DNA from: Trypanosoma brucei
Taxonomy: Eukaryota
Assembly (NCBI GenBank): GCA_000002445.1
Contig: CH464491.1
Location: 5,056,001-5,120,000, forward strand
Direction: 5' to 3'
DNA: 64,000 nt
Shown: positions 1,365 through 60,322 of the stretch, in pieces
Numbering within the stretch: position 1 is the first letter of the stretch
Layout of the letters: every line of letters starts with the position of its first letter
Translations under genes and position numbers: made by a program
Notes under the pieces: model-generated
Databases searched by the model: none
Told to the model about the DNA's origin: nothing
The model's input: the letters and a program-made list of their open reading frames with translations, nothing else

Positions 1365-1475
1365 ATCACCACAATATTATAATATTTGTATATACTCACT
1401 CACAACACACTCCTATTATTGTCATTATTATTGCTACTATCATTATCCTTATAATTACAGCTACGACTCTAACTT
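1365..1475 (-). repeat. VSG 70-bp repeat (single unit)
   Basis: aatattataatatttgtatatactcactcacaacacactcctattattgtcattattattgctactatcattatcc: GT-rich core plus TTA/TCA triplet tract. Confidence 0.85.
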
Positions 1476-1744
1476 GATATCCATAAAAAATGGGAAATGA
1501 ACTAAATTAATATATTACTTATTTTAATATACAATTACCCTCCTACATTCCACAGACAGTCCTCTATAATACAAATGTTTTACAAGTTCTTATTTTTTAA
1601 AAATTTTAATGAATTACACGTTTTGCAAGTTAGAAGTTAAAAAGTGTTAATATATATAACAAATTTTATAAAACTTCAAAAAATTATCTCAGAACAAAAA
1701 AATCATAAATTTAATAAAATTGAGCAAATATCCTTCGAATGATC

Positions 1745-2060
1745 GAATGCTACCAAACTTACAAAAGCAACAGGCATCAGAGCTAATTTCTTATTGAAAA
1801 TAAAACTGGAATCCTTGCAGTCTTTTTCATACTATTAACAGTTGCTGCCCTTTTCACAAGCTTGTCGATTAGTGTCATGTCTGGAACACTTATCTTTCTT
1901 CTCATCTTCCCCTCCTTCTTTCGCTTCTTCTTTTTATACTTTTTTTATGCCATCCTCACTCAATGTGCACTTTTTATCGTCGTTTCCTTTGGGATTGAAA
2001 ATGCGCCCATGACAGTTGAGCGGCTTTAGACGTCTGCTGTCAGGGGCAGATCTGGAAGTC
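1745..2060 (-). pseudogene. Orphan VSG C-terminal domain fragment (GPI-signal region only)
   Basis: Minus-strand translation gives ...DCKDSSFIFNKKLALMPVAFVSLVAF. Upstream coding matches the C-domain of the 12433 VSG (CTLSEE...). No N-domain. A 16-mer-like 3'UTR lies at 1641-1660. Confidence 0.6.
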
Positions 2061-2249
2061 ATTCCTTAACTGCTGATCGTAATAATCTCCTAGTTCCGAA
2101 TATCTCTCTTTTTAGATTATTTTTCATTTAAAAGCTATTCGTTTCGCGCAGCTACACTGGCATGCGTCAGCGTAAAAAAAGCCGAATGCACCGCAAAGAA
2201 AAACCTGGCAAATTATAAAAAAGCCAAAAAAAGTAAATTAAAACCCGAA

Positions 2250-2284
2250 ACCTAACCCCCTAACCCTAACCCTAACCCCAACCC
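2250..2284 (-). repeat. Interstitial telomere repeat tract (CCCTAA on plus, i.e. TTAGGG on the VSG strand); fossil telomere
   Basis: cctaaccccctaaccctaaccctaaccccaaccc, about 250 bp 3' of the VSG 2571-4086 3'UTR. Confidence 0.85.
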
Positions 2285-2520
2285 TTTTTTTCTCTTTTGT
2301 CGGTCCTATTTCTGTTCGGGCAGATTGTTCAAAAACTTAATTAAATTCGTTACCTCGGCCCAAAACAAAAATTAATTAAAAATAAAAAACCTAACACTAA
2401 AACCTACAAAAATCAACAGGAAAAAGGAGAAAAAATTTAGCAATCATCAAAAAAATTTGGTAGGCTCAGGTAGCCAATATATATATATATGTATATAACG
2501 ATTTCTCGGAGATTTTAAAG

Positions 2521-2539
2521 GGGTTAAAATATATCAAAT
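2521..2539 (-). promoter_or_regulatory. VSG 3'UTR 16-mer-like element (reverse complement of TGATATATTTTAAC..)
   Basis: gggttaaaatatatcaaat, immediately 3' of VSG 2571-4086. Confidence 0.7.
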
Positions 2540-2570
2540 AGCAAAGTTCGTTTAAAAATAGGGGAATTTT

Positions 2571-4086
2571 TTAAAACAGCAAGGCCATAAAAGCAGAAAA
2601 CACGTGAGGAACAGAAACTCTCAAATTTCTAGAAAACGATTTTTCATCTTTCTTTTTGTTTTCAGCTTTTGGAAAGCATTTAGGGTCTTTTTTATCATCA
2701 AAATCACAGCCTTTTTTATCTTTGCAGGGTTTCACTTGTTTTATGCTTTTTGCATTCATCTGCTGATTTGGCTGGTTCTGTTAATTTGTCTGTGTTTGTG
2801 GGACATGAGGGACTTTCTTGTTTTTTCTTCTTGACTTCTTGTTCGTTAATGAAACGGCGAACAGTGTAACATGTTGCTGCATCTGCGAGTTCTTTGGGGT
2901 TGGTTATTGTTTTCAGTTGTCTGTCGCCATTGCCGCCTACGGCGGCTTTTGGTGGTGTCATGTCGTCAAGCGACTTTCCTACAGCGTTTTTAATTTCGTC
3001 TCCATTTTCACCGATGACTTCCTTTAGTAAGTTATCCACTTTGGTTTTCGTGGCATCGGCGTACTTGGCGCCTTCGCCGTCTATGGCTTTCGCTAATTGT
3101 TCTTTCAGCCTCGGCGCCATTATCAGTGCTTTTATATCCAATGTTGCCGACAGTGTGCCTATCGCTGCTGCAGCGTCTTCTAGCTTGGCTATAGCTGCTG
3201 CTGCTGCTGCAATAGTTTTTTTGTTGGGGATCGCGGTAGCTTCCGAGCTGTCGGAGTATTTGCTGTCGCTTGCGTCAGTTTTACGTGTAAGCGTTATTGT
3301 TGCTTTGTCAAAAATCTTGCCGCCCTTTAAGGCTAGCACTGTGCTTGCGCCGTTGCTGCAGCCGTTGTTGGCTCCGTATTTCTGCCCGTTCGTCCCTGCG
3401 GCTGCGCAAAGTGTGAGCTCTGCGTCTGCTGCTGGTGGCGGCATATCTCTCGCTTTCAGCCCAATCAACACCAACTTATTTGTGCCTTGTTCATTTTGTG
3501 CGTGGCTACCTGTATGGTCTTCGTTCGTCCCGTCGGCTTTTTTGCATGTGCCGTGTCGGTTTGGTGTCAGCTTGGGTTTTGCCTGAAGATTCGTGCCGTT
3601 CGCGTACGTGCTTACTGCTGTGACAAAGTTTGTGGATTCTATTTGCGTGTTGCTGAGCTCTGCAACCGCTAGCATTTGTCGTTCTAGTTGTGCTGCTGCT
3701 GTTGTTCCTGCGTTTATAACGGCTGCTTTTCTTTTTACTGAGTTTAATACTTCACCAGCTGATTTTAAAAGAGACACCGCTAACAGCTTGGCTGTCAGTG
3801 CCTTCGCCCCTGTCTCTGTGCTCGTTACGGCGGGCAATTTTGTTGCTTTTGCGGTTGCCTTTTCCGCGTTATCAATTGCTGTGCTGATCAAGGCTTGGGC
3901 ATTGGCTGCAATATCTCCCAAATAGTATGCTGCGTGGCACGAGGTTGTTACTGCTGGTCTTTTGCGGTGTAATGCGGTAGCTACAGGCATTGCTGTTAAA
4001 GCAAAGATTAGTATTAACGCTTGCGGGGTTCGTTCTATCTTTACTATGGTGTCGGCCTTGCCATATTGGACGTTACTGCTGGTCAT
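2571..4086 (-). pseudogene. VSG, N-domain ORF intact, frameshift in C-terminal domain
   Basis: 456-aa ORF 2716-4086 with a hydrophobic signal (ALILIFALTAMPVATA) and an Ala-rich N-domain ends ...ADECKKHKTSETLQR*. The tail (KGCDFDDKKDPKCFPK...SAFMALLF) continues in another frame (2571-2759). 3'UTR 16-mer at 2521-2539; 70-bp repeat at 5660-5790. Confidence 0.85.
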
Positions 4087-5659
4087 TGCTCTTTGCTATA
4101 CAAACTACAGAAAGTCAAAGTTGGCTTTTAAGAAGTATACAACAAGAGTACACCGCTGTTTTTAGCGTAGAATGCATAAGAAATTCGGATCATAATTAGA
4201 AGCTTAGCCTAGTGCTTGCTTTTATTAATTTCGGATACAACCTTGCTACGCAGTTGTTGCTGGATACACCATAGTTTCTGCGTCTGCTACAGTTTTACAC
4301 GACTTGTAAAACTGCTTTAATTGTCTATAAGAATGTTGTTACTGCACAATAATCAGGTTTTCTGTGAATAAAAAGGGTATCTATTGCCTGTTACCCTGCT
4401 TGTTTTGTTGATATACTAAGATCTGAATGCATGTGTTTATTTTTAACCTGCCTACTGTGAGTGAATCAACGGCCTGAAAGTATTATGTCTCTATTAATCA
4501 GCTCAGGTACTGTCTGTTCTATTCTTTGTTCCCCAGCTTTATTTAACATTTAGCGTATATGAATGCATCTGTATCACTGTTCGTCCCTTTTCAGCGAGCT
4601 CCGCCGCTGCCGCCAAAGTAGCCTCGAAAAACACTTCTTGTGTTATGGGGCGCCATCCTGTGTCTCCTTCTTCCGCTAGAGTTGATTTATGCGTAGTGGT
4701 CATAACTTTATTAGTACGAGTATGCCGCTGCAAGTTAATCCAGCTGCCTCTGTCAGTTACATTTTCCCTATTAATTTCTATTTTTAACGTTTCCGACACA
4801 GAAAGCCGTAAATAGAATTAAATGCTGATGGTAAATAGCACCACTTCACTTCTTTTTTTCCTCTACGGTGAATTGAATTTCACTCTTATATGTAAAATCA
4901 TTTATAATATCCAACGTATATCGATTAATTTTACTTTTCATACATTTAATGTGCTTGACTATAAAAAAACGAACAAGCTGCTTCTATCTGATAAATTTCC
5001 CATTCCTGTATGTTTAGGGGGAGTTGATGCTTACTGTTTCTACACTATCTTGTAATATAGTGACACTTTTACAGTTTTTTTCGTTTTATTTTTGAACGTG
5101 TTCTTTCTCTTTCTGCTCCTATCTAAATTTGGTGCTGCTTTTGGAACTTTTGCAAGTTTTTTTCGGTCATCAGCTGTCTGTTTTCTCAAAGCATTGCCAG
5201 TTGCACTAATTTTTGTACTAGACCTACTTTTAGACATATTAGCCACCCTTAACCGGCTATAATCACCGTATCACATTGCTCTTCATCTATCATGGTGGCT
5301 ATATGGAAATAATTCAATCTTCAAATGGTTTGTTGTAGCATACAGGTAATGGTAGGGTTAGGCACCTTCCAGTTGCATTGGTTCATTATGTTAGTTATAA
5401 CGACCCAATTTGGCTATGCGGTCTCCCTGTCACTATATGTTTATCTCACTACATAATCTCCTTGTAAATAATGGTATCCATCGTCATATTTGTGTTTAAA
5501 ACTGCACAAATTTCCTCTCTATATTCATCCTTTTATCTTTCTGCGTTTTATGTGCTAACATTTCTCCCGCTCTTCCTCTTACTTACTATCCAACTAACTC
5601 ACTTACCCCACGGTGACCTCGGCATTGGTTTGAATACTTTCATTTTTGACTTCCAGTCG

Positions 5660-15694: not shown

Positions 15695-15770
15695 TACCAC
15701 CATTTTATCATGATGTTGGTATGCACTTACCGCGATCATTATTATTATTATCATCATAACCCTAAAATTA
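15695..15770 (-). repeat. VSG 70-bp repeat (degenerate)
   Basis: Preceded by the conserved ttttaaatgcttctattttt box; atcattattattattatcatcataaccc. Confidence 0.65.
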
Positions 15771-20457: not shown

Positions 20458-21921
20458 TCAAAGCCAATTTCTTATTGACAAGAAAACTTGAATCTTTGCA
20501 CTTTTTTCCATCTCATTTGCAATCAGTAGCTTTCTCGCATTCTTTTTGTTCTTTGCCTGTACAAGTTGAGGTAGTTTTCTCATCTCTATCATCTTTTTTG
20601 TCTGTTTTTGTTTCAGGTTCTGGAAAGCGTTTTTCACAATCTGGTTTGTCTTTATCAAATTTACATCCCGCTTTTTTGCAGGGTCCTTTGTCTTTGTGTT
20701 CCTTGCATTGATCGTCACTTTTTGTTTCACTGTTGGAGTCAGCGCTTTTCGTTGAGTCTTTTTCTTGTTCTAACTTTTGGATAGTATTTTTGGCTGCTGC
20801 ATCGTAGATAGCTATCGTTTTTTGTAATTCTTCTGCGTTGTCTATGTCTCCAATTGTCGTATTTTTTCCGAGGGTCTGTTTGCTATCCACTACGGGTTCC
20901 TTCTTAATCTTTTCCTACAGGTTGTCTAAGTTTTTGTCTGATGCTTTTAAAGTAGTGCTAACTGTTTGCTCTGCTTTTTCCTCGTGGGCGCCTGGTTTGT
21001 TTTTCTTTTCTGTTGCTGCTAGGAGTTGTTTAATTGCCGTTTTAGCTTCGCCGCTGTTTACTGCTTGTTTGAGGATGCTTACCTCGTCCGCTTGGGCAGA
21101 TTGTTTATGGCCAGATTTCATTGCTTTGACGTCTAAGAACGCTGTTTTTGTTAGTGTGTCCGCTTGGCGGTTGTGCGAGGCTGTATCGATAGCTGTAAAG
21201 CCGTTTCTGTGTACCTCATCTGCTGTTGAAAAGTCGAAGATGCCGTCTAGTAGCTTTTTTCTGGATGTAGCGGCTGTCTATGCACTGTGATCGTTTCCGC
21301 TGTGTGTGAACACGCAAAGGTTTCCTGTTGATTCTACGCCGTTGTCGCCTACAATGTTTTTTAGCTTAGCGTAGCCTTTAGGGATAACTAGGCCGTCGCC
21401 TATCGCAGGTGCTGATGCGGTGATCTGTTGGGGTTTACCACTGCAACCGTGTGCTTGCGCTTGGCTCGCTGCGTCGCCATAGTCATTGCTGTTCCCCAAG
21501 CAATACTTGCTGTTTTTAGATGCTTTACCGAAGATTGTTATCGTTGCGTCGATTTGCCCAACAAGCTCTTGTGTTGACGTCAGAGCTTGAACTGCTGTCG
21601 TGTAGTAACCTTCGCGGTTGCTACGCGTGTTTGCTGCAATTTTAATATGGCAGCCGCTAGTTCTGACATTTTTAAACTATCTGCTGTACTGGCTGTCTTT
21701 TCGGCGTAAAGCATTGCTTTTAATCCAGTTGTTATCATCTTATCTTCCTCTTCCTGACTGCGTGTCAGAGCTGTTAGCGCCATGCTCGGCAGTTATCTCA
21801 GTTCTGCTTCTGTTTCACATACCGGTTTCCATGTTTCCTCCTTCATGGCATTATGTGTTGGTGTTGAACCCCTGCTTAGAAACAGTGTCGTTGCTGCTAG
21901 AATCGCAGCTAGAAGAAACAT
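20458..21921 (-). pseudogene. VSG pseudogene (frameshifts; TGA replaces the conserved Trp codon in CKWDGK)
   Basis: Signal-peptide start at about 21921 (MFLLAAILAATTLFL...). N-domain fragments at 21580-21783, 21278-21499 and 20915-21121. C-domain at 20513-20890 ends ...KECEKATDCK-TGA, then DGKKCKDSSFLVNKKLALI continues. 3'UTR at 20311-20333. Confidence 0.85.
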
Positions 21922-22879
21922 TTTAAGGTGCTAGTCTTGTTGGCTGTCCTCCTGGAGTGCAAAATAAGAGAAAAAACATCTTTCCGTATCGAGAGTTCAT
22001 TTGGTTGTCTATGGTTTGCTTCTGACGGTTCGCAGCCATTACCTGCGTTTGTGCACTGCCTACCCAAGTCATTTGGCATCTACCAAAATTGAAGTTGGAT
22101 TGCTTTGTTTTCTTTGGACTAAAGCAGTGGTTAGCTTGTGCTCTGTGCAGCAAATTAGATCTTAGGTGCCGGTTCCCGGAGAAGAAAGAAACTTTGATAC
22201 TTTACTTGATTATTACCGTTGTGGCCGGCGACCTTTGTTTGGATGGGCTGTGTTACGATTACAGCCATTTCTTCATACTGGTTTTCACCCACTGTTTAAG
22301 GAGCTTCACTGTGATCGTTACCACGGCCTCCGGTATTGTCCAAATTTCAAGACTTCTCCCCTGTAGCCACTGCTTCACAGATCATATAAGGGTTTAAAAA
22401 GCCTTTATTTGGCCTTACCAACAGCTTCAGCGTCTGTACTTTCTGCTGCACGCTAGGTTCCGCCATCAAATTAAATAAAAAGTGGTGCCTATCATTAAAA
22501 TACCATCTATCCAGTTTTTAGTGAAATGTAGAAAATCATTTGCACTTCTTGATACATTGCACCCCACCCTCCACACTGTGGTGTCTCTTATTCTTCCATT
22601 CTATTCTGCATTTTCTCCTCTCTTTTCCTCCTTTTCTTCTTCTATAGCTACTTATGCTGCAGTGGATAATGAAGAAAAATTATTTAGCTTGTAGTATAGA
22701 CTCTTTCTCTCCTTCACTGTTCCATCAAGCGTCTCTTTATGTATGATCATGTCCATAGCAATGCATGACTTTGAAACTGCGTATCTTCTGTGTCATTATT
22801 TCTTTGTTTCTCTTTGAGGTTTATAATTTGAAAATATTTCTTTTACACACATTTTCTCAATCACTATACCACTATTTTC

Positions 22880-22975
22880 GTCACTATTAAAAATATTATT
22901 ACTATTACTATCTTACTATTGATATTATCATCATTATCATTACTATCACTATTATAACCGTAACTAATATCCATA
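22880..22975 (-). repeat. VSG 70-bp repeat (TAT/TCA-rich, degenerate core)
   Basis: attattactattactatcttactattgatattatcatcattatcattactatcactattataacc. Confidence 0.6.
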
Positions 22976-23189
22976 AATAAACAAATAATGATAAATTAGA
23001 AAATTACCCATCTTTCATACCCTATTACCACAATACTTTATACAGAAATTTAATATTTTATGGGGGTTTAAAACTTGCAAAGGCTTTATTAAAAGAGTGA
23101 AAATTTATCTAATTTAAAAGTTCAGCTAATTCTGGCAAAAATGCAGATTTTTATATGTTTTATAACTTTGAGCAACAATCCTAAATTTT

Positions 23190-24644
23190 TTATGCTAGAA
23201 GCAAAACTGCAAGCAAAGGAAGAGCGTTGATTACAATAGATCTTCTCCCTGTTGAGGTTGTAGACACTTTTTTATTTGGAAAGCATTTCGGGTCTTTTTT
23301 CTCATCAAAATCGCAACCTTTTTCACCTTTGCAGGCTTGCTCCGTTGTATGCTTTTTGCATTCGTCTGCTGATTTTTTCGGTTCTTCTAGTTTGCCTGTT
23401 TTGGTTGGGCAAGAGGGGTTTTCTTGGTTTTTCTTTTTTTGCTCTTCCTCGTCGATAAAATTTTTGATAGTGTAATACGTCGCTGCTTTTGACAGCTCCT
23501 CAGGGGCGTTTATTGAATCAAGTTTTTTAGCGCCGTCTGAGCCTGCTGCTTTACTTGGCTGAAAGGTGTTCAGTAATTGGGTTATTTGTGTTTTGATTGA
23601 GTTTCTTTCTTTGCCGAAAAGTTCTTCGGTTGTGTGTTTAACTTTTTCCTTTAAATTTGGTTGCTCGGCTGTCGCTTCGTGGCCTCCCAAAGCTTTGGCT
23701 ATTGCGTGCCCTGCGGAAGCGGCATCAAAGGCGCTTTCAATGGTAGCAGGTGGTGTTATCGTGCCGAGTTGTGTTGCAGCGTGAACCATTTCAAGTACCA
23801 GCGCAAGTTCTGCTTTTATTGTCGCTTTATTGGGCGTCGTCGCATCGTCGCCGATTTCGTTGTAGGCAAGCGGGGCCGAGTCGCCTGTTGTGTGGGCAAC
23901 TGCTACCGTTGCCGTGAATACTTGCCCTCCTTTGAATCCTATGTTAGTTGCCTGGGTTGAAGTGCAGCTTGCCGTGTTTGGTGCGCCGCTGCTGACCGAG
24001 TTGCTGCCGCATATTGTTAGGTAGGTGCCGAGCGCGCTTCCTGGTGGTGTTGGTGTCACTGTCACTATCGTTATGGCGTTTTTGTGGTCTGCATTATGAT
24101 CGTCGGTGCTCGAGTCCTTTTCCCTGCTGTCGTCCTGTCCGACACAATGAGCTTTAAGAGCCGCGTCCAGCTTGGGCTTGAGTTGGCCTTTTGTCGCTGT
24201 CGCCGTGCTTGTCGTGGCTGTGGCCATATTTAGATCTTGTAGGTGCAGCTGTGAGAGTCTGCTGATTGCTTCCTGGCTCCCTGCGAGCCGGCTCAGCGCT
24301 TCGATGCCTTTTAATAACGCTGGGGTATTTGCGGCTAGCTTATCGTTTGCTTCTGCGGCTTTTTGAATATAAATTGAGCGCAGATAAGCTGCTGCCCAGC
24401 CCGCGTTTGTGTTAACACCGTTGGCGATGACGTCAGGCTTAGAAGCTGTAGTCAGCATCGTCTTGACAGCTTCTTGTGTGGATGTGATTTTGGTCCTTGC
24501 GGAGTCCGCCATCTGCCGCAGCTGCGTTGCTACGTCGCATGCGCTTTTAGCCTTTTTTGTTGGTGTTTTTACAGCTGAAGTTGTTACAACTGGTAGGCAA
24601 AGGGCTATGCTTACGAAAGTCAATGCCTTGAAGTTTGCCAACAT
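23190..24644 (-). CDS. Variant surface glycoprotein, apparently intact
   Basis: 484-aa ORF. Signal MLANFKALTFVSIALCLPVVTTSA. Ala/Thr-rich N-domain. C-domain ...ADECKKHTTEQACKGEKGCDFDEKKDPKCFP...IVINALPLLAVLLLA. Confidence 0.85.
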   Translation of the reverse strand: MLANFKALTFVSIALCLPVVTTSAVKTPTKKAKSACDVATQLRQMADSARTKITSTQEAVKTMLTTASKPDVIANGVNTNAGWAAAYLRSIYIQKAAEANDKLAANTPALLKGIEALSRLAGSQEAISRLSQLHLQDLNMATATTSTATATKGQLKPKLDAALKAHCVGQDDSREKDSSTDDHNADHKNAITIVTVTPTPPGSALGTYLTICGSNSVSSGAPNTASCTSTQATNIGFKGGQVFTATVAVAHTTGDSAPLAYNEIGDDATTPNKATIKAELALVLEMVHAATQLGTITPPATIESAFDAASAGHAIAKALGGHEATAEQPNLKEKVKHTTEELFGKERNSIKTQITQLLNTFQPSKAAGSDGAKKLDSINAPEELSKAATYYTIKNFIDEEEQKKKNQENPSCPTKTGKLEEPKKSADECKKHTTEQACKGEKGCDFDEKKDPKCFPNKKVSTTSTGRRSIVINALPLLAVLLLA

Positions 24645-26021
24645 CTTGTCGTCTTGTAGAAGCTTGTGGATTAGAAGTTGGTCAAATGTAAACTTGGGAG
24701 CTTACAGCTTTTGTTTAAAAGAAAGTAGTGACTTTCACACATAATATCCTTCAACAAGTTTTTGTTATATATTGTTAAATTATAAAAAAGCTCGATTTCA
24801 CCATAAAACTCCATAGTAATTATGACAAAAGTTCACCTGCTTTTACGAATAGATTGCATTTTTTAATTATAATTTATGTTGTTTTATAACTATAGCTACA
24901 GCATATATTCTTTATTTGTGAAATTGGTACATAGTGTCCTGAAAATAGGAAACCTATTTATCTCCATGAGGACTCAAAGACAATGTTTTTCTATTTATTT
25001 TATCTAGCGCTATTTTTTTTATATGCCGACGTAATAACATGGCAAGGCCGTCTCTTGTCACGAACGCGAATATTATTTTTGTTTAGGGTTAGCTTTTGTT
25101 TTCCTTAATGTCTTCTTCTCTGAAGACTTGGTAATTTCGACCGCTGAGGGCGGATTTTTTCGCAGTATTTAATTTTTAATTGGCGCCGTTAGATGTGTAT
25201 AAGTGACTTATTTTACATGGATTAGTCGCCCCATCAAGAATATTAACGTCTGCACATTATACCATAATGCAATTTAAGGAGTACTATTGTTTATTCTCTC
25301 AGCTTCATAAAAATCCTCCAGTGGCTCATATACGCACTTTTTAAAGACGTTTTCGCGTCTAATTCTTCATATTTTGTCACTTTAATCAATTAGTAGTCCT
25401 ATTTTTAAAAATATTCTCCCAATAATATTATATTAGTGGGCATATATATGAATTAACGCCTATTAATGTATCTAATAAAAGGGAAACTTTGGCAGTACAT
25501 TACACTTACTCATTCCTTCCGTCCTCTTTATTCTTCACATCTAATATTAAGATCCTCTATCATATAACAAAAAACAGTCATCAATTTCTCTTCAATAACA
25601 TCTATACATTTTTGAGTATTATACGGAGAACAGACTTCTACATTATAATTTCATTCTGTGCTTCTCTGTACCGTGCGTCTATTTGCTTCACTCTATATTT
25701 ACTTTTCTTCTTCTCCGACAGCTGCTTCAATCCATACGGATTACATACCGACTCCCTTGCGCATGTGTACTTTACTTCGGATCACCCCTACTGTTCCTTC
25801 ATCACATTCTAGTTTACAAAGATTACCAGCTTTATATCAGTGGACAAAACTATGCACATTTTATCACCACCCAATTATTTCTCTTTTGGAGTTGTCCTTT
25901 AATAATATTACTCGAGCTCTCGCCCTCCAACTTCTTTACTCACTTAATACAACTGCACACACTTCAATATCTTACGTGCTACTATTTTTCGTTGCCTATC
26001 TTGGCTTCAGAAGAACTCTTA

Positions 26022-26100
26022 ACATAATATTTGTATATACACACTCTCACAAAACTCTTCTATTATTATTACTATTATCATCTTTAATATGTATTACAGC
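26022..26100 (-). repeat. VSG 70-bp repeat
   Basis: aacataatatttgtatatacacactctcacaaaactcttctattattattactattatc. Confidence 0.8.
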
Positions 26101-26399
26101 AAAAAATGAATTAAAAGAGTAAATAAGTGTAACCCTAATTTTTTATACACTATGATAATAGTATCGTGAAGGTGTTGGACACAGTAAAACACTTTCATAC
26201 ATTACATATTTTTTAAAAATTTCATTCTTTCAATATTTAAGAAATTTTGCAAAGTTTCATCAAAAACGTGTTGCAATATATCCAATGTTAGCAAATTTAG
26301 TAAATTCTCAAAAAATGTCCAAGTTTCATAAGGTTTATTCGTTTTATAAAATAAAACAAATATCCTTATAATAATAAAATGCTATAAAATGTACAAAAG

Positions 26400-26800
26400 C
26401 AGCAGCCATACTTAGAGCCGATTTCTTATTGACGAGAAACTGGAAGAGTGGAATTTGAAACTTTTATCACCTCAACTTGCATCATCTCCTTTCCAGCCAC
26501 AAAATTTGTTTTTTCCTACTGGTTTGGGACTGTATGCCGCCTCACATTCCGTATGTGCATTAGGATCAGCACATGTCTTTCCATTCTTATTTTTCCCATC
26601 ATTCCCTCCTTCTTAGTTTGCTTCTTTTTCTACTTTCTTCTTGATTTCCTCACTCAACGTGCACTTTTTGCAGTCGTCGATTTTCGGTTTGAAAACGGAC
26701 CTCTAGCAGTTGAGCGGCTTCAGCTGTTGGGTTCCAGCGACAGATTGTGTAGCCGCTCTTTGATTTCTAATTTTGATAATTGGCCATCCCCCAAATGTTA
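26400..26800 (-). pseudogene. Orphan VSG C-terminal fragment (paralog of fragment 1745-2060)
   Basis: DNA is homologous to 1790-2060 (cctcactcaaYgtgcacttttt...gcagttgagcggctt). 16-mer-like element at 26263-26287. No N-domain. Confidence 0.6.
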
Positions 26801-27002
26801 GTATTTTTTCCTTATTTCCCCTTTAAAAACAAATCGTTTCGCGCGGCGAAACTGCCACCCGCCAGCGTATACCGAAAGATTTAGGCCGCTCGCAGCCCAA
26901 AACTCAGAATTTAAATTCATAAAAGCTCAAAAAGTTAAATCGAAACAAGCTGCTAGTGATGTAGATTCGGCTAATTTAAACAAGGATGTTTGCTGCGTGA
27001 AT

Positions 27003-27017
27003 AAGGGTTAGGGTTGT
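27003..27017 (+). repeat. (TTAGGG)2 in opposite orientation to the adjacent CCCTAA tract
   Basis: taagggttagggttg on the plus strand, 100 bp from the CCCTAA-type tract at 27117-27180 (head-to-head arrangement). Confidence 0.7.
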
Positions 27018-27116
27018 CATAAAAAAAAAGATCCGCTTCATCATTAAAATTTAAAAAAACTAAAGTCACAACGCTTCACTGCTAGTAAAAAAACTTACTA
27101 GTAAGAGGAGAAATAA

Positions 27117-27180
27117 CTCTAACCCTAACCTTCCTAACCTCCCTAACCCTCCATACCTCTCCCTACCTACCGCCTACCCT
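27117..27180 (-). repeat. Degenerate interstitial telomere repeat tract (CCCTAA-like)
   Basis: ctctaaccctaaccttcctaacctccctaaccctccatacctctccctacctaccgcctaccctc, about 110 bp 3' of the VSG 27350-28860 3'UTR. Equivalent position to 2250-2284 within the duplicated module. Confidence 0.8.
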
Positions 27181-27283
27181 CTTTTTTGGTTTGTTAGACA
27201 AAAAACAACAAGAAAATAAAAGAAATTTTTTAACTATCAAAAACAAAATTTTACACGCACAGACGGCCAAAAAAAAATATTCC

Positions 27284-27306
27284 CGGGAAAATTACGTGTT
27301 AAAATA
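27284..27306 (-). promoter_or_regulatory. VSG 3'UTR 16-mer element
   Basis: acgtgttaaaatatataaaaatc. Confidence 0.7.
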
Positions 27307-27349
27307 TATAAAAATCTCAGAAAGAAAAAAAGAGGGGGAAAAATTTGTT

Positions 27350-28860
27350 TTAAAAAAGCAAGGCCACATATGCGGCAGAAACCATCATGGCGAATTGTTT
27401 GTTTCCTAGAATAGAGGAATCTTTGCATTTATCCTCAATCCATCCACAATAAGCTTTTTCACCAGGTTTTTTGTCCCTCATTCTCCTTTTCACAGTTTGC
27501 TTTATCTTTATGTTTTGTACACCTCTCTGAAGCAGTATTTGTTTCTTTTTTTGAGCTTGTGCTACAGGAACGCCGGTTGCTGTCGCTTTTTTTGGCATCA
27601 AATTTACATTTTTTGGTTTGTTCGGTTTCTGTTGTATTATAACTGCATATAGGATTTGCGTTACATGCAGCAACTTCTGTTAGTTTGCTTCAAGTTTCTT
27701 CTGCTTTTTTACGCCTAAGAACCCTCTGAAAGTTCCTTGTGGTAATCTGGAGCTTTTTTGTTTGCTTTTTTGTTTAAAATTTGTAGTTTCTTTTCTTCCT
27801 TGCGAGCTAGTTGCTGATAGTCTAGCTGCATGGTTAGCTGTAGGTCTATTTGGCCACGTGTCGGAGCTAGTGCTTTGTCCCCTTTAAGAGCTTTTACGAA
27901 GCCACTGTCGCTGCCGTTGGCTGGTATTTTGAAAAGCTCGGTTGCTATTTTCTTTATGTCGTTTTCTTCTTTGGCGGGCTTGTATTGGTAGAAAGAGTTT
28001 ATTGTGTCTTTGAGCTTTCTACCTACTGCGTCCGGTTTCAATAGCTTCTCTAGTCCGTCGGCGTCGAGCGTTTGCGCTGTATCGGTCGCAGACAAGTAAT
28101 TATGTGTTGCTGTGTAAGACGATGCTATCGGCTTGAGTATATCCGTCTCCGTTGCTGCTTTTTCGATGTTGTTTGTTGCAAAGCCCCCGGTGTTTGCTAT
28201 TTCTATTAAACCTTCCAGCAGCAGCATGTTGCCGGTATCCTTTTTGTAAGCCGTTAGGACAGCTGCGGTTAAAGCACAGCTGTTTGCTGTTGCTCCCGTC
28301 AGGGCGGTCGAAGCTGAGAACACTTGAATTGCCGCCTCTTGTAAGTTTGTGGCGTCGGGGATTTCGGCTGTTAAGTCAGTGGCTTTGCAGCCATTGCTAG
28401 CCGCTTCGTTTGACTCCGTATTTGGCTGTGTGCGTGCTGAAATACAGAAGCCGTTAGATGGGTTTGTGCGCTGCGCATTCTTGAACAAGAGCATTAGTTC
28501 GTCTATTCTGCCACTTGCGTAAGAGACTTGGCCTGCAGCCTTTACGGCTGCTGTCATTTTTGAAGTGGGTTCAGTTAGGTGTCGGTCGCCTTCGCCTTGC
28601 AGGTAGGCTGCCAGTATCAGAGGTTGCGTTGCCCATCCCGGTGATTTCACTGCACATGCAGTTAGCCTTGCTGTAGCAGCGTTGATTACTTTCAGATAGC
28701 TAGCTGTGTTTGACAGCTTTAGCCGCGTTCCGAGCTGCGGCTTTTTTTGCTTTAGCAGAGAAATCGCAAGTTTTCTGTGCAGCGGCACTGCTTAGTGCAT
28801 CACCTGCACTGGCTGAGCCCTCGTGTGCGTTAATGTACACTAGTCAAAATAGTGTAAGGC
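27350..28860 (-). pseudogene. VSG pseudogene (signal peptide stopped; C-domain in a different frame)
   Basis: MIRTGLTLF* then LVYINAHEGSASAG... at about 28790-28860. 357-aa N-domain ORF 27715-28788. C-terminus ...CGWIEDKCKDSSILGNKQFAMMVSAAYVALLF in ORF 27350-27673. 3'UTR 16-mer at 27284-27306. Confidence 0.85.
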
Positions 28861-40116: not shown

Positions 40117-41595
40117 TTAGAAAAGCAAAAATGCAGGCAAAAGAGGTGCTTTTATTACAGCTGAAATAACAGCCGCGCCCTTTTTAACTTTACATTCATT
40201 CTCTTCCTTGTTCCAAGTGCATTTTGTCGTGTCACAATTAGTCTCCAATTTACCTTTGCACTCCTCGTCTTTTTTATCCCCGTCTTTTTTATCTCCTGCG
40301 TCTTTACCTAATTCTTTTTGGCTTGTCGTGTTAACACTCTTGTCCGATGCTTGTGCTGATGCGGCCCGAATTGTTCGAAGTCTGGATAATGCATCGTGCT
40401 CTTCGGTGTCGTCGATGATAGTGTCGATTGTAACGGGCTGTACCTTGCCGCCCCTGTAGACTAGCATTTTTGTATCCGCGAGTAGTTTTTTGAACTTTGC
40501 TTCAAATTTGGTTGTGGAATCAGTATAAGCGTCTTTCAGGAATGTTGTCATGTTCTCCTCATCTGCTGGCTTCATTTCCGTTTTGTCTTTGTATTGCCGG
40601 AGGCACCCTTTTGCCACTTGTTTGACTATGGGAATTTCTGATAGAGCCGCCCCTGTGAGGTCTAGAGGTGTTGGAATTTTTATTTGGGTTGTTAGTGCTG
40701 TGCAAATTTTGTAAAGGCTCGTTTTCTGGTCATCATCTTTGCCGCCGTTTGTGGCCAGCGGCTCGCACCCTTGCTCAGGTTTGTTATCTTTGTATATCTT
40801 GATTTTTTTAGGCGTGCCCGCCGTTGCGTCGGGTGCTTCTGCCGGCTTGGCCGTTGGGCCGTTGGCGACATTGGTTATATCGTCGATCGCGCAGCTGGTC
40901 TTTGCGCCGGTCCAGCTCGTCCAGCTGGTGCTGCCGGTACACCCGCTATTGTATGTGACTGTTATGATTGATGGGTTTATATTGTCCAGTAGTTTGGTTG
41001 TGTCGACCGTGATAAATTTCTCTACAAGCTTCGGCTTGATTTCTTTGCTTTCTGTTTGCCACTTGTTTTGGGTCTTTTTGACTTCGCATAGATTTGTCGA
41101 TTTTATCTTAGGTGTTAACTTGTGTTCCGTTGTCGTGCCACTCGCTTTTTTGTGGGCGCTGTTGCCGATTTCGAATTCTGTGTTTGCAAGTTTCACGGCC
41201 GCTTCCGCTGTTTTGGTGAATTGAGCTAGGTGTCTTAGTCCCTCCGCTTTGTTTTTTATTGCAGTATTTATCGTTTCGGCTGCTGCTTTGGTGTGTTGTG
41301 CCGCCGCCGCCGCTGCGGCCGCTAACAAACAGCCGTCATCGGTACCGGCGCCTATAGCTGCCGCCAAAGTTAGTCGGCGCCGTTGCTTATCCAGGTCAAT
41401 TACATCTGTTTTCGCGGCCTCTACTTCTGTCGCCAGCTGTTCTTCTAGTGCTGCTAAGTAAAGGGCTGCATGGCAGACTGTGGTCAGATCCGCTTCCTTC
41501 GCGTCGTCTGCGCCAACAAAGACTGCTTTTATTACTAAAATAGCTGTTATAGACAGTCGGTTCATTCTCCTGGTTAAACTTTTTTTCTGCAGCAA
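40117..41595 (-). CDS. Variant surface glycoprotein, apparently intact
   Basis: 492-aa ORF. Signal MNRLSITAILVIKAVFVGA. Ala-rich N-domain. C-domain ...CKGKLETNCDTTKCTWNKEENECKVKKGAAVISAVIKAPLLPAFLLF*. 3'UTR at 40059-40078; 70-bp repeat at 43235-43310. Confidence 0.9.
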   Translation of the reverse strand: MLQKKSLTRRMNRLSITAILVIKAVFVGADDAKEADLTTVCHAALYLAALEEQLATEVEAAKTDVIDLDKQRRRLTLAAAIGAGTDDGCLLAAAAAAAAQHTKAAAETINTAIKNKAEGLRHLAQFTKTAEAAVKLANTEFEIGNSAHKKASGTTTEHKLTPKIKSTNLCEVKKTQNKWQTESKEIKPKLVEKFITVDTTKLLDNINPSIITVTYNSGCTGSTSWTSWTGAKTSCAIDDITNVANGPTAKPAEAPDATAGTPKKIKIYKDNKPEQGCEPLATNGGKDDDQKTSLYKICTALTTQIKIPTPLDLTGAALSEIPIVKQVAKGCLRQYKDKTEMKPADEENMTTFLKDAYTDSTTKFEAKFKKLLADTKMLVYRGGKVQPVTIDTIIDDTEEHDALSRLRTIRAASAQASDKSVNTTSQKELGKDAGDKKDGDKKDEECKGKLETNCDTTKCTWNKEENECKVKKGAAVISAVIKAPLLPAFLLF

Positions 41596-46844: not shown

Positions 46845-47075
46845 CTTATTATAATTTTCGTATACACACACTTACTACACTCTCCTATTATAATTATAAT
46901 TATCATCATTATCATCATTATCATCATTATCATCATTATCATTATTATCATCATTATCATCATTATCATTATTATCATTATTATTATTATTATTACTTCT
47001 CTTATTATAATATTTGTATATGCACACTCTCACAACACTCTCCTATCATTATCATTATTACTACTACTACAAAAC
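46845..47075 (-). repeat. Two tandem 70-bp repeat units with an expanded (TCATTA/TCATCA)n tract
   Basis: Core 1 ataattttcgtatacacacacttactacactctcc, then about 110 nt of tcattatcatcattatc..., then core 2 ataatatttgtatatgcacactctcacaacactctcctatcattatcattattactactac. Confidence 0.85.
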
Positions 47076-49984: not shown

Positions 49985-51522
49985 TTCAGAAACCATCAGG
50001 GCGAATTTTTGTTTACTAGAATAGAGGAATCCTTGCATTCTTTTCCATCCTATTTGCAATCAGTAGCCTTGGTGCATTCTTTTTGCTCTTTCCCTTTACA
50101 TTTCTCCTCTTTCTTTTCTTCCGCCTTCACTCCCTCTTTGAGGTTGCATTTTCCTTCTTTGTGTTCGCAATCTTTTTCCTCTTTGCATTTAGTTGCTTCA
50201 GTGTCTGGCTTGCATTTTTCTGTAGTTTTTGATTCTGCAGTGGTCTTAGGTTTAGCTTGTTGTTGTCTGCTGTTTTCTTTCCAGAAAACAACTGCTATTG
50301 CTTCCCCAAAATTTGCAGTGTTAGAGACCCCTACTATGTCTGGGTCGGCGTTTGTGGAGCCCACATTGTACGTTATTTTGTCATCTTTTAAGGGTTCAAT
50401 GAACTCCTTGTTGATATCGGTTGTATTTGGTCCGTATACTGCCGTTATTGCGGCTGTCCAGTCCGCGTCCGCTGCCGTTTCAGGTACCGATCCTTTCGTG
50501 AGCAGGAAAGCTATCTTCGCTGCCGGTGCCCCTTTGGCTATTTGTTTGCGCGTCAGACTTGTTGCTTTCGCCTCTTGTTTTATTAGGACTTTTTTGGCTT
50601 TACAGACCTTGTTTAACAGCGTTTTGTCTGTAATTACTAGTTTAAGCGGCTGTTTGTCGACGAAGCAGGCCGGGTCGTCCGGCCCTGTCTTTCCTAGCGC
50701 CTGTTTGGCTGGCACCTTTATTGCCGCCGGGGCTGCACTTGGTTTTGCGCCTACGCCGTTTACCACTGACGCTGGCGTTGTTGAGCTGGCTCCACAGTAT
50801 CCGGCTCCCTTAGGGCCGTTTGTACTGACGCTGCCGGCGGTTCCTTGCATGTGGATGTCAAAAGAAAGCTGCATGGGTTGGGGTTCAGTGTTTGGCGTTA
50901 GTGCTAGGTGTTTTAGTTCCCCTAACTCGGCGCTGAGCTTGTCTATGGCATCCTTGTAAGCTGCCATATTGTCGCATACGTCGTCTGTTTCCCCCGTTGT
51001 TGCATAGGTGGCGACACATTTTCCTTCCGCTGCTCCGTCGGCGCTTAGCCATTGTGCGCCCGTGCCTGTCCATTGGGCCTTGGCGGTTGCTTGGATCGCT
51101 TTCGTGGGACCAGTGAGCAGCTGCCCTAATACGCCGTTCCGTTTCTGCAGCGCTTCAATTGCCTCCTGTAGCGTCCGTGCTTTTCCTTTCAATGCAGCTT
51201 GTTGCCTGATCGCCGCGTCTGCTGCTATTGAGCTGAGGGCTGTGTACAGCATCTTCGCCTGCTTGTCGGTTGCTGCTGTCGCCGCGAGAAAAAACATGCG
51301 CGTCTCAGTGTTGAGGTCCGAAAGACGCTGCCGCGATTCTTGGATATTGGTACTGAAGTGTTCTGCCAGTTTCTTGTTAAAATAGATTTCGGCGCATGTG
51401 CTGGTGACCGCCGCTAAGCTTCCGTGGTCCGTTGATTGCGCAGTGGCGAGTGTACCCAGAAACACCACCAGTATGGCAGCGATTCTTCTTGCTAGTTCGT
51501 GCATCTGCATTCGCCTCCTCAT
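49985..51522 (-). pseudogene. VSG with intact N-domain ORF but TAG at the conserved Trp codon and a downstream frameshift
   Basis: 490-aa ORF 50050-51522 (signal ARRIAAILVVFLGTLATAQS). Ends ...KECTKATDCK-TAG-DGKECKDSSILVNK, followed by a 1-nt loss before the ...FALMVS tail. 3'UTR at 49891-49911. Confidence 0.85.
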
Positions 51523-53254: not shown

Positions 53255-53440
53255 CTCATAATAATATTCGTATACACACACTCACAACACACTCCTATTA
53301 TTATTAATATTATTATCATTATTATTATTACTGCTGTTATTATAATATTCGTATACACACACTCACAACACTTTCCTATTATTATTAATATTATTATCAT
53401 TATTATTATTACTGCTGTTATTATAACTATAAATGATGTC
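53255..53440 (-). repeat. Two near-identical tandem 70-bp repeat units (about 86 bp each)
   Basis: ataatattcgtatacacacactcacaacac(a/t)(c/t)tcctattattattaatattattatcattattattattactgctgttattataa occurs twice head-to-tail. Confidence 0.9.
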
Positions 53441-60030: not shown

Positions 60031-60300
60031 CAAAAAAATAAGGAGCTAGATTGTGAAGTTGAGTCAATGTTAGCTCAATTTAGAACAGGGACTCCAAAAC
60101 ATTTTGGATGGTTACATAGGGTGATCATAAGAACAGTTAACAAACTGGAGTGTAGATGGTGTGCAAAACACACGGAGAGCATTCTCAATACTCCCTAACC
60201 ATATTACATTACAACAACAGGTCACTATCATATACATCTACTATTTTTTCACTTTTTTCATTTTTTTCATTATTTTCAAATAATCGAAAAGGTTTTACAA

Positions 60301-60322
60301 ACGTGTTAAAATACATCAAATT
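60301..60322 (-). promoter_or_regulatory. VSG 3'UTR 16-mer-like element
   Basis: acgtgttaaaatacatcaaatt, 70 nt 3' of VSG 60392-61744. Confidence 0.7.

What the first reader, a model, noticed from the sequence alone, without database searches (positions are those of the whole stretch)
1480..2560. Duplicated ~1.1 kb 'fossil telomere' module downstream of two different VSGs (copy 1)
Copy 1 (1480-2560) and copy 2 (26100-27340) share the same ordered content, read on the VSG strand: a VSG 3'UTR of the same subtype (aacagcaaggccaYaWaWgc); a TTAGGG-type tract (2250-2284 / 27117-27180); a conserved block with TTCGTTTCGCGC(A/G)GC (2146-2160 / 26836-26850); and an orphan VSG C-terminal fragment with its own 16-mer (1745-2060 / 26400-26800). 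The two modules align in DNA (cctcactcaaYgtgcacttttt...gcagttgagcggcttYag). The VSGs immediately 5' are unrelated (KGCDFDDKK-type vs CGWIEDKCKDSSIL-type C-termini). G-strand repeats 3' of a VSG on its coding strand is exactly the geometry of a telomeric VSG, as at expression sites and minichromosomes. This suggests a former chromosome end internalised and later duplicated, with different VSGs gene-converted in upstream of it.
Basis: partly seen in the sequence, partly recalled or inferred. Interest (0 to 1): 0.7.

Follow-up and report, generated by a model that had tools for sequence, protein, structure and literature searches.

The report
Relic telomere junctions inside a VSG array
Two silent trypanosome surface-antigen genes in this array are each followed by a short stretch of telomere repeats and the stump of another antigen gene, which looks like an old, duplicated scar of a chromosome end now buried inside the chromosome.

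Summary
The window is a Trypanosoma brucei-group VSG array with all genes on the minus strand.

**Telomere tracts.** The window has only two telomere-type tracts, at 2242-2285 and 27107-27180. Both have the G-strand on the VSG sense strand. Each begins about 170-280 nt after the stop codon of an A-type VSG pseudogene.

**Shared architecture.** Each tract sits in a spacer of about 1.1-1.25 kb between the VSG and the next 70-bp repeat. Six ordinary cassettes have about 190-250 nt there. On the VSG sense strand both spacers read:
- 3'UTR with the 16-mer
- a shared flank (67% identity)
- the telomere-type tract
- a shared non-VSG block (62% identity)
- a VSG C-terminal-domain pseudogene cut at the same codon position
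- an ordinary array-type flank and the 70-bp repeat

**Specificity.** The flank and block occur nowhere else in the window or in about 70 kb of T. equiperdum VSG loci. The two upstream VSGs are unrelated.

**Reading.** This is most likely one old junction between a telomeric VSG 3' end and a truncated array VSG. It was later duplicated, and the neighbouring sequence was exchanged by gene conversion.

**Limit.** I could not compare it with real T. brucei chromosome ends, so telomeric origin rests on geometry, not homology. Interest is moderate: a local instance of interstitial telomeric sequence.

The parts
2716..4086 (-). Copy 1 upstream VSG, A-type N-terminal domain ORF. It is a pseudogene: the C-terminal domain continues in another frame.
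   Evidence: ORF list; PF00913 E=7e-6; frame shift between 2716 and 2720 seen in the translations.
2571..2720 (-). Copy 1 upstream VSG C-terminal domain and GPI signal (KGCDFDDKKDPKC...SAFMALLF*), with the stop codon at 2571-2573.
   Evidence: Translation. The same C-terminal-domain type is found in other VSGs.
2521..2570 (-). Copy 1 3'UTR, with the conserved VSG 16-mer at 2521-2536.
   Evidence: 16-mer scan; sequence.
2405..2505 (-). Copy 1 shared flank on the VSG side of the tract. It is not the array-type flank.
   Evidence: 66.7% identity to 27195-27290, local-alignment z=6.9. The nhmmer profile hits only these two sites.
2390..2407 (-). Copy 1 degenerate telomere-like stretch (GTAGGTTTTAGTGTTAGG), at the position where copy 2 has its tract.
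   Evidence: Alignment. The direct repeat 2228-2265 / 2367-2404 suggests a local duplication of the tract boundary.
2293..2389 (-). Copy 1 unique segment between the two telomere-like stretches.
   Evidence: No significant similarity to the copy 2 insert in either orientation.
2242..2285 (-). Copy 1 telomere-type tract. The sense strand reads GGGTTGGGGTTAGGGTTAGGGTTAGGGGGTTAGGTTTCGGGTT.
2036..2241 (-). Copy 1 non-VSG conserved block, containing TCGTTTCGCGCAGC at 2147-2160.
   Evidence: 61.7% identity to 26731-26965. The nhmmer profile hits only the two copies. No VSG or other protein, Pfam or Rfam match.
1745..2035 (-). Copy 1 orphan VSG C-terminal-domain pseudogene with in-frame stops, lacking the first two cysteines of subdomain 1.
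   Evidence: PF10659 positions 16-104, E=4e-16. Aligns to the intact L002 VSG sequence LETQGCVFNKDGKDGEKCTLNEE.
1461..1744 (-). Copy 1 orphan 3'UTR (16-mer-like at 1644-1659) and array-type flank.
   Evidence: The distance from the 16-mer to the 70-bp core is 249 nt, as in ordinary cassettes.
1375..1460 (-). 70-bp repeat of the next cassette. This is the distal boundary of copy 1.
27715..28788 (-). Copy 2 upstream VSG, A-type N-terminal domain ORF (pseudogene), unrelated to the copy 1 VSG.
   Evidence: PF00913 E=2e-16; BLASTP against the copy 1 VSG E=1.7.
27350..27478 (-). Copy 2 upstream VSG C-terminal-domain end and GPI signal (CGWIEDKCKDSSILGNKQFAMMVSAAYVALLF*).
   Evidence: Translation; PF10659 E=6e-12.
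27296..27349 (-). Copy 2 3'UTR, with the 16-mer at 27296-27311.
27195..27290 (-). Copy 2 shared flank on the VSG side of the tract.
27107..27180 (-). Copy 2 telomere-type tract. It is degenerate next to the VSG and canonical at the far end (…GGTTAGGGAGGTTAGGAAGGTTAGGGTTAGAG), with 9-bp periodicity.
26966..27116 (-). Copy 2 unique insert. It contains an inverted telomere dimer (AGGGTTAGGGTT on + at 27004-27015).
26731..26965 (-). Copy 2 non-VSG conserved block.
26350..26730 (-). Copy 2 orphan VSG C-terminal-domain pseudogene, truncated at the same position as copy 1. Its second half is a different C-terminal-domain variant.
   Evidence: PF10659 positions 16-103, E=9e-14; alignment.
26101..26349 (-). 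Copy 2 orphan 3'UTR and array-type flank.
26016..26100 (-). 70-bp repeat of the next cassette. This is the distal boundary of copy 2.

Best explanation
Each module is a scar of a former chromosome end. It consists of the 3' end of a telomeric VSG (3'UTR, a short telomere-proximal flank and the first, partly degenerate TTAGGG repeats) joined to an array VSG that lost everything upstream of its C-terminal domain.

The join most likely arose when a chromosome end with a very short telomere was repaired on an array. The repair would have been by microhomology-primed, break-induced copying or by end joining. The terminal VSG thereby became internal and the array continued beyond it.

That single junction was later copied to a second place in the array. 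Since then the two copies have diverged to about 62-68% identity. Gene conversion, bounded by the conserved VSG 3' end and by the 70-bp repeat, has replaced the upstream VSG and the distal half of the orphan C-terminal domain, leaving a conserved core of about 0.6 kb.

Shown: the anatomy, the specific homology on both sides of the tract, the shared truncation point, and the rarity of the elements. Inferred: telomeric origin, the repair route and the order of events. The module need not have a present function.
For: - The only two telomere-type tracts in 64 kb are here, both with the G-strand on the VSG sense strand.
- The tracts begin 170-280 nt after the VSG stop. Real expression sites have 200-1590 nt between VSG and telomere repeats (PMC2567434).
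- The copy 2 tract runs from degenerate to canonical moving away from the VSG, as expected at a subtelomere-telomere junction.
- After the 16-mer the two upstream VSGs lack the array-type flank element (GAAAGTG.CCTATGG...) that six other cassettes and both orphans have.
- The distance from the 16-mer to the 70-bp repeat is 1126 and 1244 nt here, against 187-249 nt elsewhere.
- Both orphan C-terminal domains start at the same profile position, inside subdomain 1.
- The flank and block are homologous between the copies (z=6.9; E=2e-24) and are absent from the rest of the window and from six T. equiperdum loci.
- The upstream VSGs are unrelated.
- T. brucei subtelomeres are fragile near the telomere repeats, and breaks there are repaired by loss or replacement of the expression site or by microhomology-mediated joining (PMC3610638).
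Against: - No true T. brucei telomeric VSG flank could be fetched, so homology of the flank to real chromosome ends is untested.
- The one possibly telomeric comparator, the T. equiperdum contig L004, runs from a 70-bp repeat through a VSG and ends 105 nt past the 16-mer. It is not significantly similar to the flank (z=0.2-2.0).
- The 200-nt block between the tract and the C-terminal domain has no identified source, which the simple model does not explain.
- The centre of the module differs between the copies, so the tract itself may have been remodelled or acquired separately.
- The tracts are short (44 and 74 nt).
Confidence: 0.55

Rival explanations
1. The module is a relic of telomere-adjacent DNA but not of the telomere itself. 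On this reading the flank, the TTAGGG-like islands and the block are all part of the normal spacer that lies between a telomeric VSG and its true telomere repeats. The join to array DNA is then at the block/C-terminal-domain boundary (about 2035 / 26730), and the real telomere tract was lost completely.
For: - In the active expression site, GGGTTA-like sequences lie about 300 bp downstream of VSG2, ahead of the true repeats. Telomere-like sequences are also scattered in the genome (PMC11229358).
- Copy 1 has two separate telomere-like stretches.
- The block is non-VSG and unexplained otherwise.
- VSG-to-telomere spacers reach 1590 nt.
Against: - Primer sequences from the telomere-proximal ends of two expression sites (PMC11229358 supplement) have no convincing match in the block.
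- The copy 2 tract becomes canonical at its distal end, as a real telomere start would.
Confidence: 0.2
2. The repeats are not of telomeric origin. This is a rare long variant of the inter-VSG spacer, in which short TTAGGG-like repeats arose by chance and replication slippage in AT-rich non-coding DNA.
For: - The tracts are short and degenerate, and copy 2 is built on a 9-bp unit.
- Other isolated 9-12-nt telomere-like words occur in the window.
- No homology to a real telomere flank was shown.
Against: - 31 positions match at 17/24 or better, against about 1 in shuffles.
- Both tracts have the same strand orientation and sit at the same place after a shared flank.
- Copy 1 has 21 consecutive canonical bases.
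- The tracts co-occur with a truncated VSG, which indicates a rearrangement junction.
Confidence: 0.1
3. Two independent captures of telomeric VSG ends occurred at paralogous array sites, rather than one event followed by duplication.
For: The centre of the module (tract and neighbouring unique DNA) is not alignable between the copies. The upstream VSGs are unrelated.
Against: - The truncation point of the orphan C-terminal domain is the same in both copies, and both have a homologous non-VSG block upstream of it.
- The flank on the VSG side of the tract is also homologous.
- Two independent events would not be expected to reproduce both.
Confidence: 0.07
4. The module is a head-to-head telomere-telomere fusion. 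On this reading the block is the inverted, decayed 3' end of a second VSG facing the first across the repeats.
For: - In copy 2 an inverted dimer (AGGGTTAGGGTT on +) lies about 100 nt from the main tract.
- There are weak + strand similarities of 26733-26837 to the CDFD..KKDPKC C-terminal-domain motif and of 26877-27014 to VSG N-terminal regions.
Against: - These similarities are at noise level after composition correction (E=0.008-0.5 per query across 114 queries).
- There is no Pfam hit.
- There is no DNA similarity to VSG 3' ends in inverted orientation (z no higher than 2.3).
- Copy 1 has no inverted repeat.
- The orphan C-terminal domain is in the same orientation as the upstream VSG.
Confidence: 0.03
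5. The structure is an assembly artefact that falsely joins a telomere-bearing read to array sequence.
For: Internal telomere repeats in trypanosomatid contigs have been attributed to possible misassembly (T. cruzi, PMC3418195).
Against: Two copies with the same architecture but only 62-68% identity, 25 kb apart in one contig, cannot both be false joins.
Confidence: 0.02

Closest known systems
Interstitial telomeric sequences of the subtelomeric class (short, degenerate telomere repeats left inside chromosomes by end repair or subtelomere exchange). The short TG1-3 tracts between X and Y' elements in budding yeast are a close analogue (from general knowledge, not tested here).
   Same: A short, partly degenerate tract in a single orientation, lying at a boundary between two blocks of subtelomeric repeat-family DNA and duplicated together with its flanks.
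   Different: Here the tract sits between an antigen gene's 3' end and the stump of another antigen gene. I found no description of this in T. brucei VSG arrays in nine of the ten allowed full-text searches. Older subscription papers were not searchable.
The 3' region of telomeric VSGs in bloodstream expression sites, metacyclic sites and minichromosomes
   Same: The order VSG, 3'UTR with 16-mer, a spacer of a few hundred nt, then G-strand repeats on the coding strand. The distance is at the low end of the reported 200-1590 nt, and GGGTTA-like islands occur before the true repeats.
   Different: The tract is only 44-74 nt and is followed by more array DNA rather than kilobases of TTAGGG. Sequence homology to real telomeric flanks is untested.
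C-terminal VSG fragments in the silent archive (a class I recall from the T. brucei genome and archive analyses; those papers were not readable here)
   Same: An orphan C-terminal-domain pseudogene with its own 3'UTR elements and a normal array-type flank up to the next 70-bp repeat.
   Different: These two fragments share a precise truncation point and are preceded by a specific non-VSG block and a telomere-type tract.
Internal telomere repeats in Trypanosoma cruzi subtelomeric contigs (PMC3418195)
   Same: Telomere hexamers found inside contigs rich in surface-antigen genes. The authors discuss either a merger of chromosome ends or misassembly.
   Different: Different species and gene families. 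Here duplication with divergence argues against misassembly.
Head-to-head telomere fusion scars such as human 2q13
   Same: A fossil telomere inside a chromosome.
   Different: There is no convincing inverted array here. The main tracts are in one orientation and the flanking genes point the same way.

Membership tests
Interstitial telomeric sequence | Tandem copies of the species' telomere repeat (TTAGGG), beyond chance | tested here: met
   2258-2285 is CCCTAA x4.7 at 90% matches. 27113-27168 is a degenerate array. 31 positions match at 17/24 or better, against about 1 in shuffles.
Interstitial telomeric sequence | Non-terminal position, with unique DNA on both sides | tested here: met
   Both tracts are followed by a block, a C-terminal-domain fragment, a 70-bp repeat and a further VSG cassette. 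Whether the assembly is correct cannot be checked without reads.
Fossil chromosome end (former telomeric VSG) | G-strand repeats 3' of the gene on its coding strand, at a distance seen at real ends | tested here: met
   The orientation is the same in both copies. The tracts lie 170-280 nt from the stop, against a reported 200-1590 nt.
Fossil chromosome end (former telomeric VSG) | The sequence between gene and tract is homologous to the sequence at real telomeric VSGs | not testable with these tools
   No T. brucei expression-site or minichromosome DNA was reachable. Look-ups of window VSGs and of Lister 427 VSGs returned nothing. The only candidate, L004, is not significantly similar.
Fossil chromosome end (former telomeric VSG) | The tract is degenerate next to the gene and canonical further out | tested here: inconclusive
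   This is clear in copy 2. Copy 1 has a degenerate stretch, 97 nt of unique DNA and then a near-canonical stretch.
Fossil chromosome end (former telomeric VSG) | The sequence beyond the tract is unrelated to the normal neighbour and shows a rearrangement junction | tested here: met
   There is a 5'-truncated C-terminal domain at the same codon position in both copies, followed by a normal array-type flank.
Segmental duplicate (the two modules descend from one) | Specific homology on both sides of the tract that other cassettes do not share | tested here: met
   The flank gives z=6.9 and the block E=2e-24. The nhmmer profiles hit only the two copies in about 134 kb.
Head-to-head telomere fusion | Inverted arrays of repeats with inverted subtelomeric DNA on the far side | tested here: not met
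   There is only a 12-nt inverted dimer, in copy 2. There is no significant inverted VSG 3' end.
Retroposed VSG cDNA or mobile element | A poly(A) tail at the mRNA end, target-site duplications, or element-encoded sequences | tested here: not met
   There is no A-run after the 16-mer, no flanking direct repeats, and no Rfam or Pfam matches.

The most novel reading that the evidence does not exclude
The modules may record a route by which telomeric VSGs, including ones assembled in an expression site, are moved back into the silent array. That would make the archive partly written from the telomere. The retained telomere-type flank and repeats might also still act as downstream homology, or as a binding site for telomere proteins, and so change how readily the adjacent VSG is copied or silenced.
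Probability: 0.12. Interest if true: 0.7.

Novelty: new member of a known kind. Interest (0 to 1): 0.4.

Why it matters
How VSG arrays grow, and whether sequence ever flows from telomeres back into the silent archive, is poorly documented. Most work follows the opposite direction, from array to expression site. A dated, duplicated junction between a telomeric-type VSG 3' end and a truncated array VSG gives a sequence signature to look for: the flank, the tract, the block, and a C-terminal domain cut in subdomain 1. That signature can be counted across complete T. brucei assemblies to test how often chromosome ends have been internalised. On its own it is a structural relic next to two pseudogenes, and interstitial telomere repeats are common in eukaryotic subtelomeres, so a specialist would find it informative rather than surprising.

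Tried and rejected
**Fetching the source genome or Lister 427 loci.** Exact-protein look-ups returned nothing for three window VSG ORFs, for a Lister 427 expression-site VSG and for VSG-597. Only T. equiperdum and T. b. equiperdum contigs were reachable.

**Protein search with the translated block and C-terminal-domain fragment.** No hits.

**Synteny.** The T. equiperdum contig L001 matches window 20751-26056 at 89-91% identity. The match stops at the 70-bp repeat, which is an N gap in L001. Upstream of the gap L001 carries a different, complete VSG, so it says nothing about the age of copy 2.

**L004 as a telomeric comparator.** Its post-16-mer flank looks collinear by eye, but the similarity is not significant (z=0.2 and 2.0), and the nhmmer flank profile does not hit it.

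**Primers from the telomere-proximal ends of two expression sites** (PMC11229358 supplement). Only noise-level matches were found.

**The block as VSG coding sequence.** In the sense orientation, VSG similarity begins only at about 2035. In the antisense orientation, weak hits disappear into noise after composition correction, and Pfam finds nothing.

**The block as an inverted VSG 3' end (head-to-head fusion).** No DNA similarity.

**Homology between the two unique centre segments.** None in either orientation.

**Non-coding RNA.** No Rfam match at gathering threshold over the window, or at E no higher than 1 over the modules.

**Literature.** Nine of the ten allowed full-text searches found no description of telomere repeats inside T. 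brucei VSG arrays. The archive analysis by Marcello and Barry could not be opened.

Full report
**What the window is.** GC content is 40%, and every long VSG-like ORF lies on the minus strand. One ORF (23190-24644) is 95% identical to T. brucei Lister 427 VSG-597. All other hits are T. brucei, T. equiperdum or T. b. equiperdum VSGs. Pfam finds A-type and B-type VSG N-terminal domains and VSG C-terminal domains. Single or short 70-bp repeats mark the cassette boundaries. The window is therefore a silent subtelomeric VSG array. 'Downstream of a VSG' means towards lower coordinates.

**Checking the observation.** A scan for windows matching at least 17 of 24 bases to the telomere repeat in any phase finds only two places, 2235-2292 and 27107-27137. 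Both have the C-strand on +, so the G-strand is on the VSG sense strand. That is 31 positions, against about one in shuffled sequence. Tandem Repeats Finder gives the same two arrays and no others: CCCTAA x4.7 at 2258-2285, and a 9-bp variant at 27124-27152.

BLASTN aligns 1896-2174 with 26590-26869 (68.6% identity over 280 nt, E=2e-24) and 1710-1811 with 26342-26445 (76%). The translated orphan fragments match the VSG C-terminal-domain family over profile positions 16-104 (E=4e-16 and 9e-14). The two upstream VSGs are both A-type but have no detectable similarity to each other. The description holds.

One label is wrong. This is common to most VSGs and carries no information about subtype.

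**Anatomy.** Both modules have the same order on the sense strand:
- stop codon
- a short 3'UTR with the 16-mer
- a flank of about 100 nt
- a telomere-type tract
- a non-VSG block of about 210-235 nt
- a VSG C-terminal-domain pseudogene
- its own 3'UTR with a 16-mer-like element
- an ordinary flank
- the 70-bp repeat of the next cassette

Six other cassettes in the window, and both orphans, share a recognisable array-type element after the 16-mer (GAAAGTG.CCTATGGGTGTAAAG and variants). In the cassettes where both landmarks were located, the 70-bp repeat follows the 16-mer after 187-249 nt. The two upstream VSGs lack this element, and their distances to the 70-bp repeat are 1126 and 1244 nt. 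So the orphans carry the normal 3' end of a resident array VSG, and the VSGs in front of them carry a different kind of 3' flank.

**How far the two modules are specifically related.**
- The flank on the VSG side of the tract is 66.7% identical between the copies. Its local-alignment score is 6.9 standard deviations above shuffles.
- The non-VSG block is 61.7% identical.
- Profiles built from the flank and from the block hit only these two places in the window plus six T. equiperdum / T. b. equiperdum loci, about 134 kb of VSG-array DNA in total.
- Comparison with an intact VSG in L002 (…CEKLETQGCVFNKDGKDGEKCTLNEE…) shows that VSG-derived sequence begins at the same point in both copies. That point is inside the first cysteine subdomain of the C-terminal domain, at about 2035 and 26730.
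- Beyond roughly 45 codons the two C-terminal domains become different variants. The tail and 3'UTR are generic and match many cassettes about equally well.
- The centre of the module is not conserved. Copy 1 has a degenerate telomere-like stretch, 97 unique nt and then the good tract. Copy 2 has its tract and then 151 unique nt that include a 12-nt inverted telomere dimer. The unique segments do not align in either orientation.

A shared truncation point plus specific homology on both sides of the tract is hard to obtain twice independently. I conclude that one ancestral structure was duplicated. The level of divergence, roughly 0.5 substitutions per site by my Jukes-Cantor estimate from 62% identity, suggests the duplication is old.

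**Is it telomeric in origin?** The geometry fits.
- The G-strand lies 3' of a VSG on its coding strand, beginning 170-280 nt after the stop. In 17 cloned expression sites the VSG-to-telomere distance is 200-1590 nt (PMC2567434).
- The copy 2 tract is degenerate next to the VSG and canonical at its far end.
- T. brucei subtelomeres are reported to be fragile near the telomere repeats, and breaks there are resolved by loss or replacement of the site or by microhomology-mediated joining (PMC3610638). This makes repair of a short chromosome end on an array a plausible route.

The decisive test is homology of the flank to real telomeric VSG flanks, and it could not be run. No T. brucei expression-site or minichromosome sequence was reachable. 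The single candidate was a 3.4-kb T. equiperdum contig that runs from a 70-bp repeat through a VSG and stops 105 nt after the 16-mer. It is not significantly similar to the flank.

Real expression sites also have GGGTTA-like islands a few hundred bp before the true repeats (PMC11229358). It therefore remains open whether the tracts are the start of the old telomere or part of telomere-adjacent DNA. In the second case the unexplained block would belong to that spacer too, and the junction would lie at the C-terminal-domain truncation point.

**Alternatives examined.**
- Chance or slippage origin is unlikely, given the statistics, the shared position and orientation, and the association with a truncated gene.
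- A head-to-head fusion was suggested by the inverted dimer in copy 2 and by weak antisense similarities to VSG motifs. It fails on composition-corrected statistics, on Pfam and on DNA comparison with VSG 3' ends.
- There is no sign of a retroposed cDNA, a mobile element or a structured RNA.
- Misassembly cannot explain two diverged copies of one architecture.

**Comparison with what is known.** The modules meet the definition of interstitial telomeric sequences of the subtelomeric kind. They resemble the short telomere tracts between yeast subtelomeric elements (general knowledge) and the internal telomere repeats noted in T. cruzi contigs (PMC3418195). Orphan C-terminal VSG fragments are, to my recollection, a recognised class in the T. 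brucei archive. Nine of the ten allowed full-text searches found no paper describing telomere repeats downstream of array VSGs. Older subscription papers, including the archive analysis, could not be read, so prior description cannot be excluded.

**Verdict.** The 'duplicated fossil chromosome end' reading is the best available but only partly supported, because telomeric origin rests on geometry. I rate it a new member of a known kind, of moderate interest. Its value lies in giving a searchable signature for internalised chromosome ends in VSG arrays.

Noticed in passing
window 26130-26138, 25083-25092, 5353-5362, 15757-15765: Isolated exact 9-10-nt telomere-repeat words occur outside the tracts. 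The window has 8 such words of 9 nt or more, against about 1.9 in shuffles. Two of the extra ones lie within 1.1 kb downstream of copy 2. The one at 26130 sits in the orphan's array-type flank, in a stretch that resembles the distal edge of the copy 2 tract (26112-26138 vs 27102-27128, 78% identity).
   Followed up: partly
L001:1-1300 vs window 26056-27400: A T. equiperdum OVI contig matches window 20751-26056 at only 89-91% identity, so it may be a paralogue. Collinearity ends at the 70-bp repeat, which is an N gap in the contig. Upstream of the gap the contig has a different, complete VSG with an ordinary 3' end instead of module copy 2.
   Followed up: partly
window 2716-2720: The copy 1 upstream VSG changes reading frame between its N-terminal domain ORF and its C-terminal domain, so it is a pseudogene. 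The copy 2 upstream VSG also has only a 357-aa ORF.
   Followed up: no
window 53261-53426 and 46846-47069: These are the only places in the window with more than one 70-bp repeat unit: two 81-nt units at 97% identity at the first, and an (ATTATCATC)n run flanked by two cores at the second. Other cassettes have a single unit.
   Followed up: no
window 60190-60303: The VSG ending at about 60392 has a 16-mer and an array-type element but no 70-bp repeat within 330 nt downstream. Non-repeat sequence follows instead.
   Followed up: no
window 26733-26837 (+ strand): On the strand opposite to the module, a stretch translates to C..S..NFD..PSPKC. It weakly resembles the CDFD..KKDPKC motif of one VSG C-terminal-domain type (E about 0.1-0.5 per query, and the queries are not independent). 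It is probably noise, but it lies next to the C-terminal-domain truncation point.
   Followed up: yes
window 40117-41595 and 50050-51522: Two long minus-strand ORFs in VSG cassette positions get no significant VSG Pfam match, although their C-terminal ends align with VSG 3' ends elsewhere in the window.
   Followed up: no
L004:3180-3367: A T. equiperdum contig begins in a 70-bp repeat and ends 105 nt after the VSG 16-mer, without the array-type flank element. This would be expected if the assembly stopped at telomere repeats. Its C-terminal domain is of the same type as that of the copy 1 upstream VSG.
   Followed up: partly
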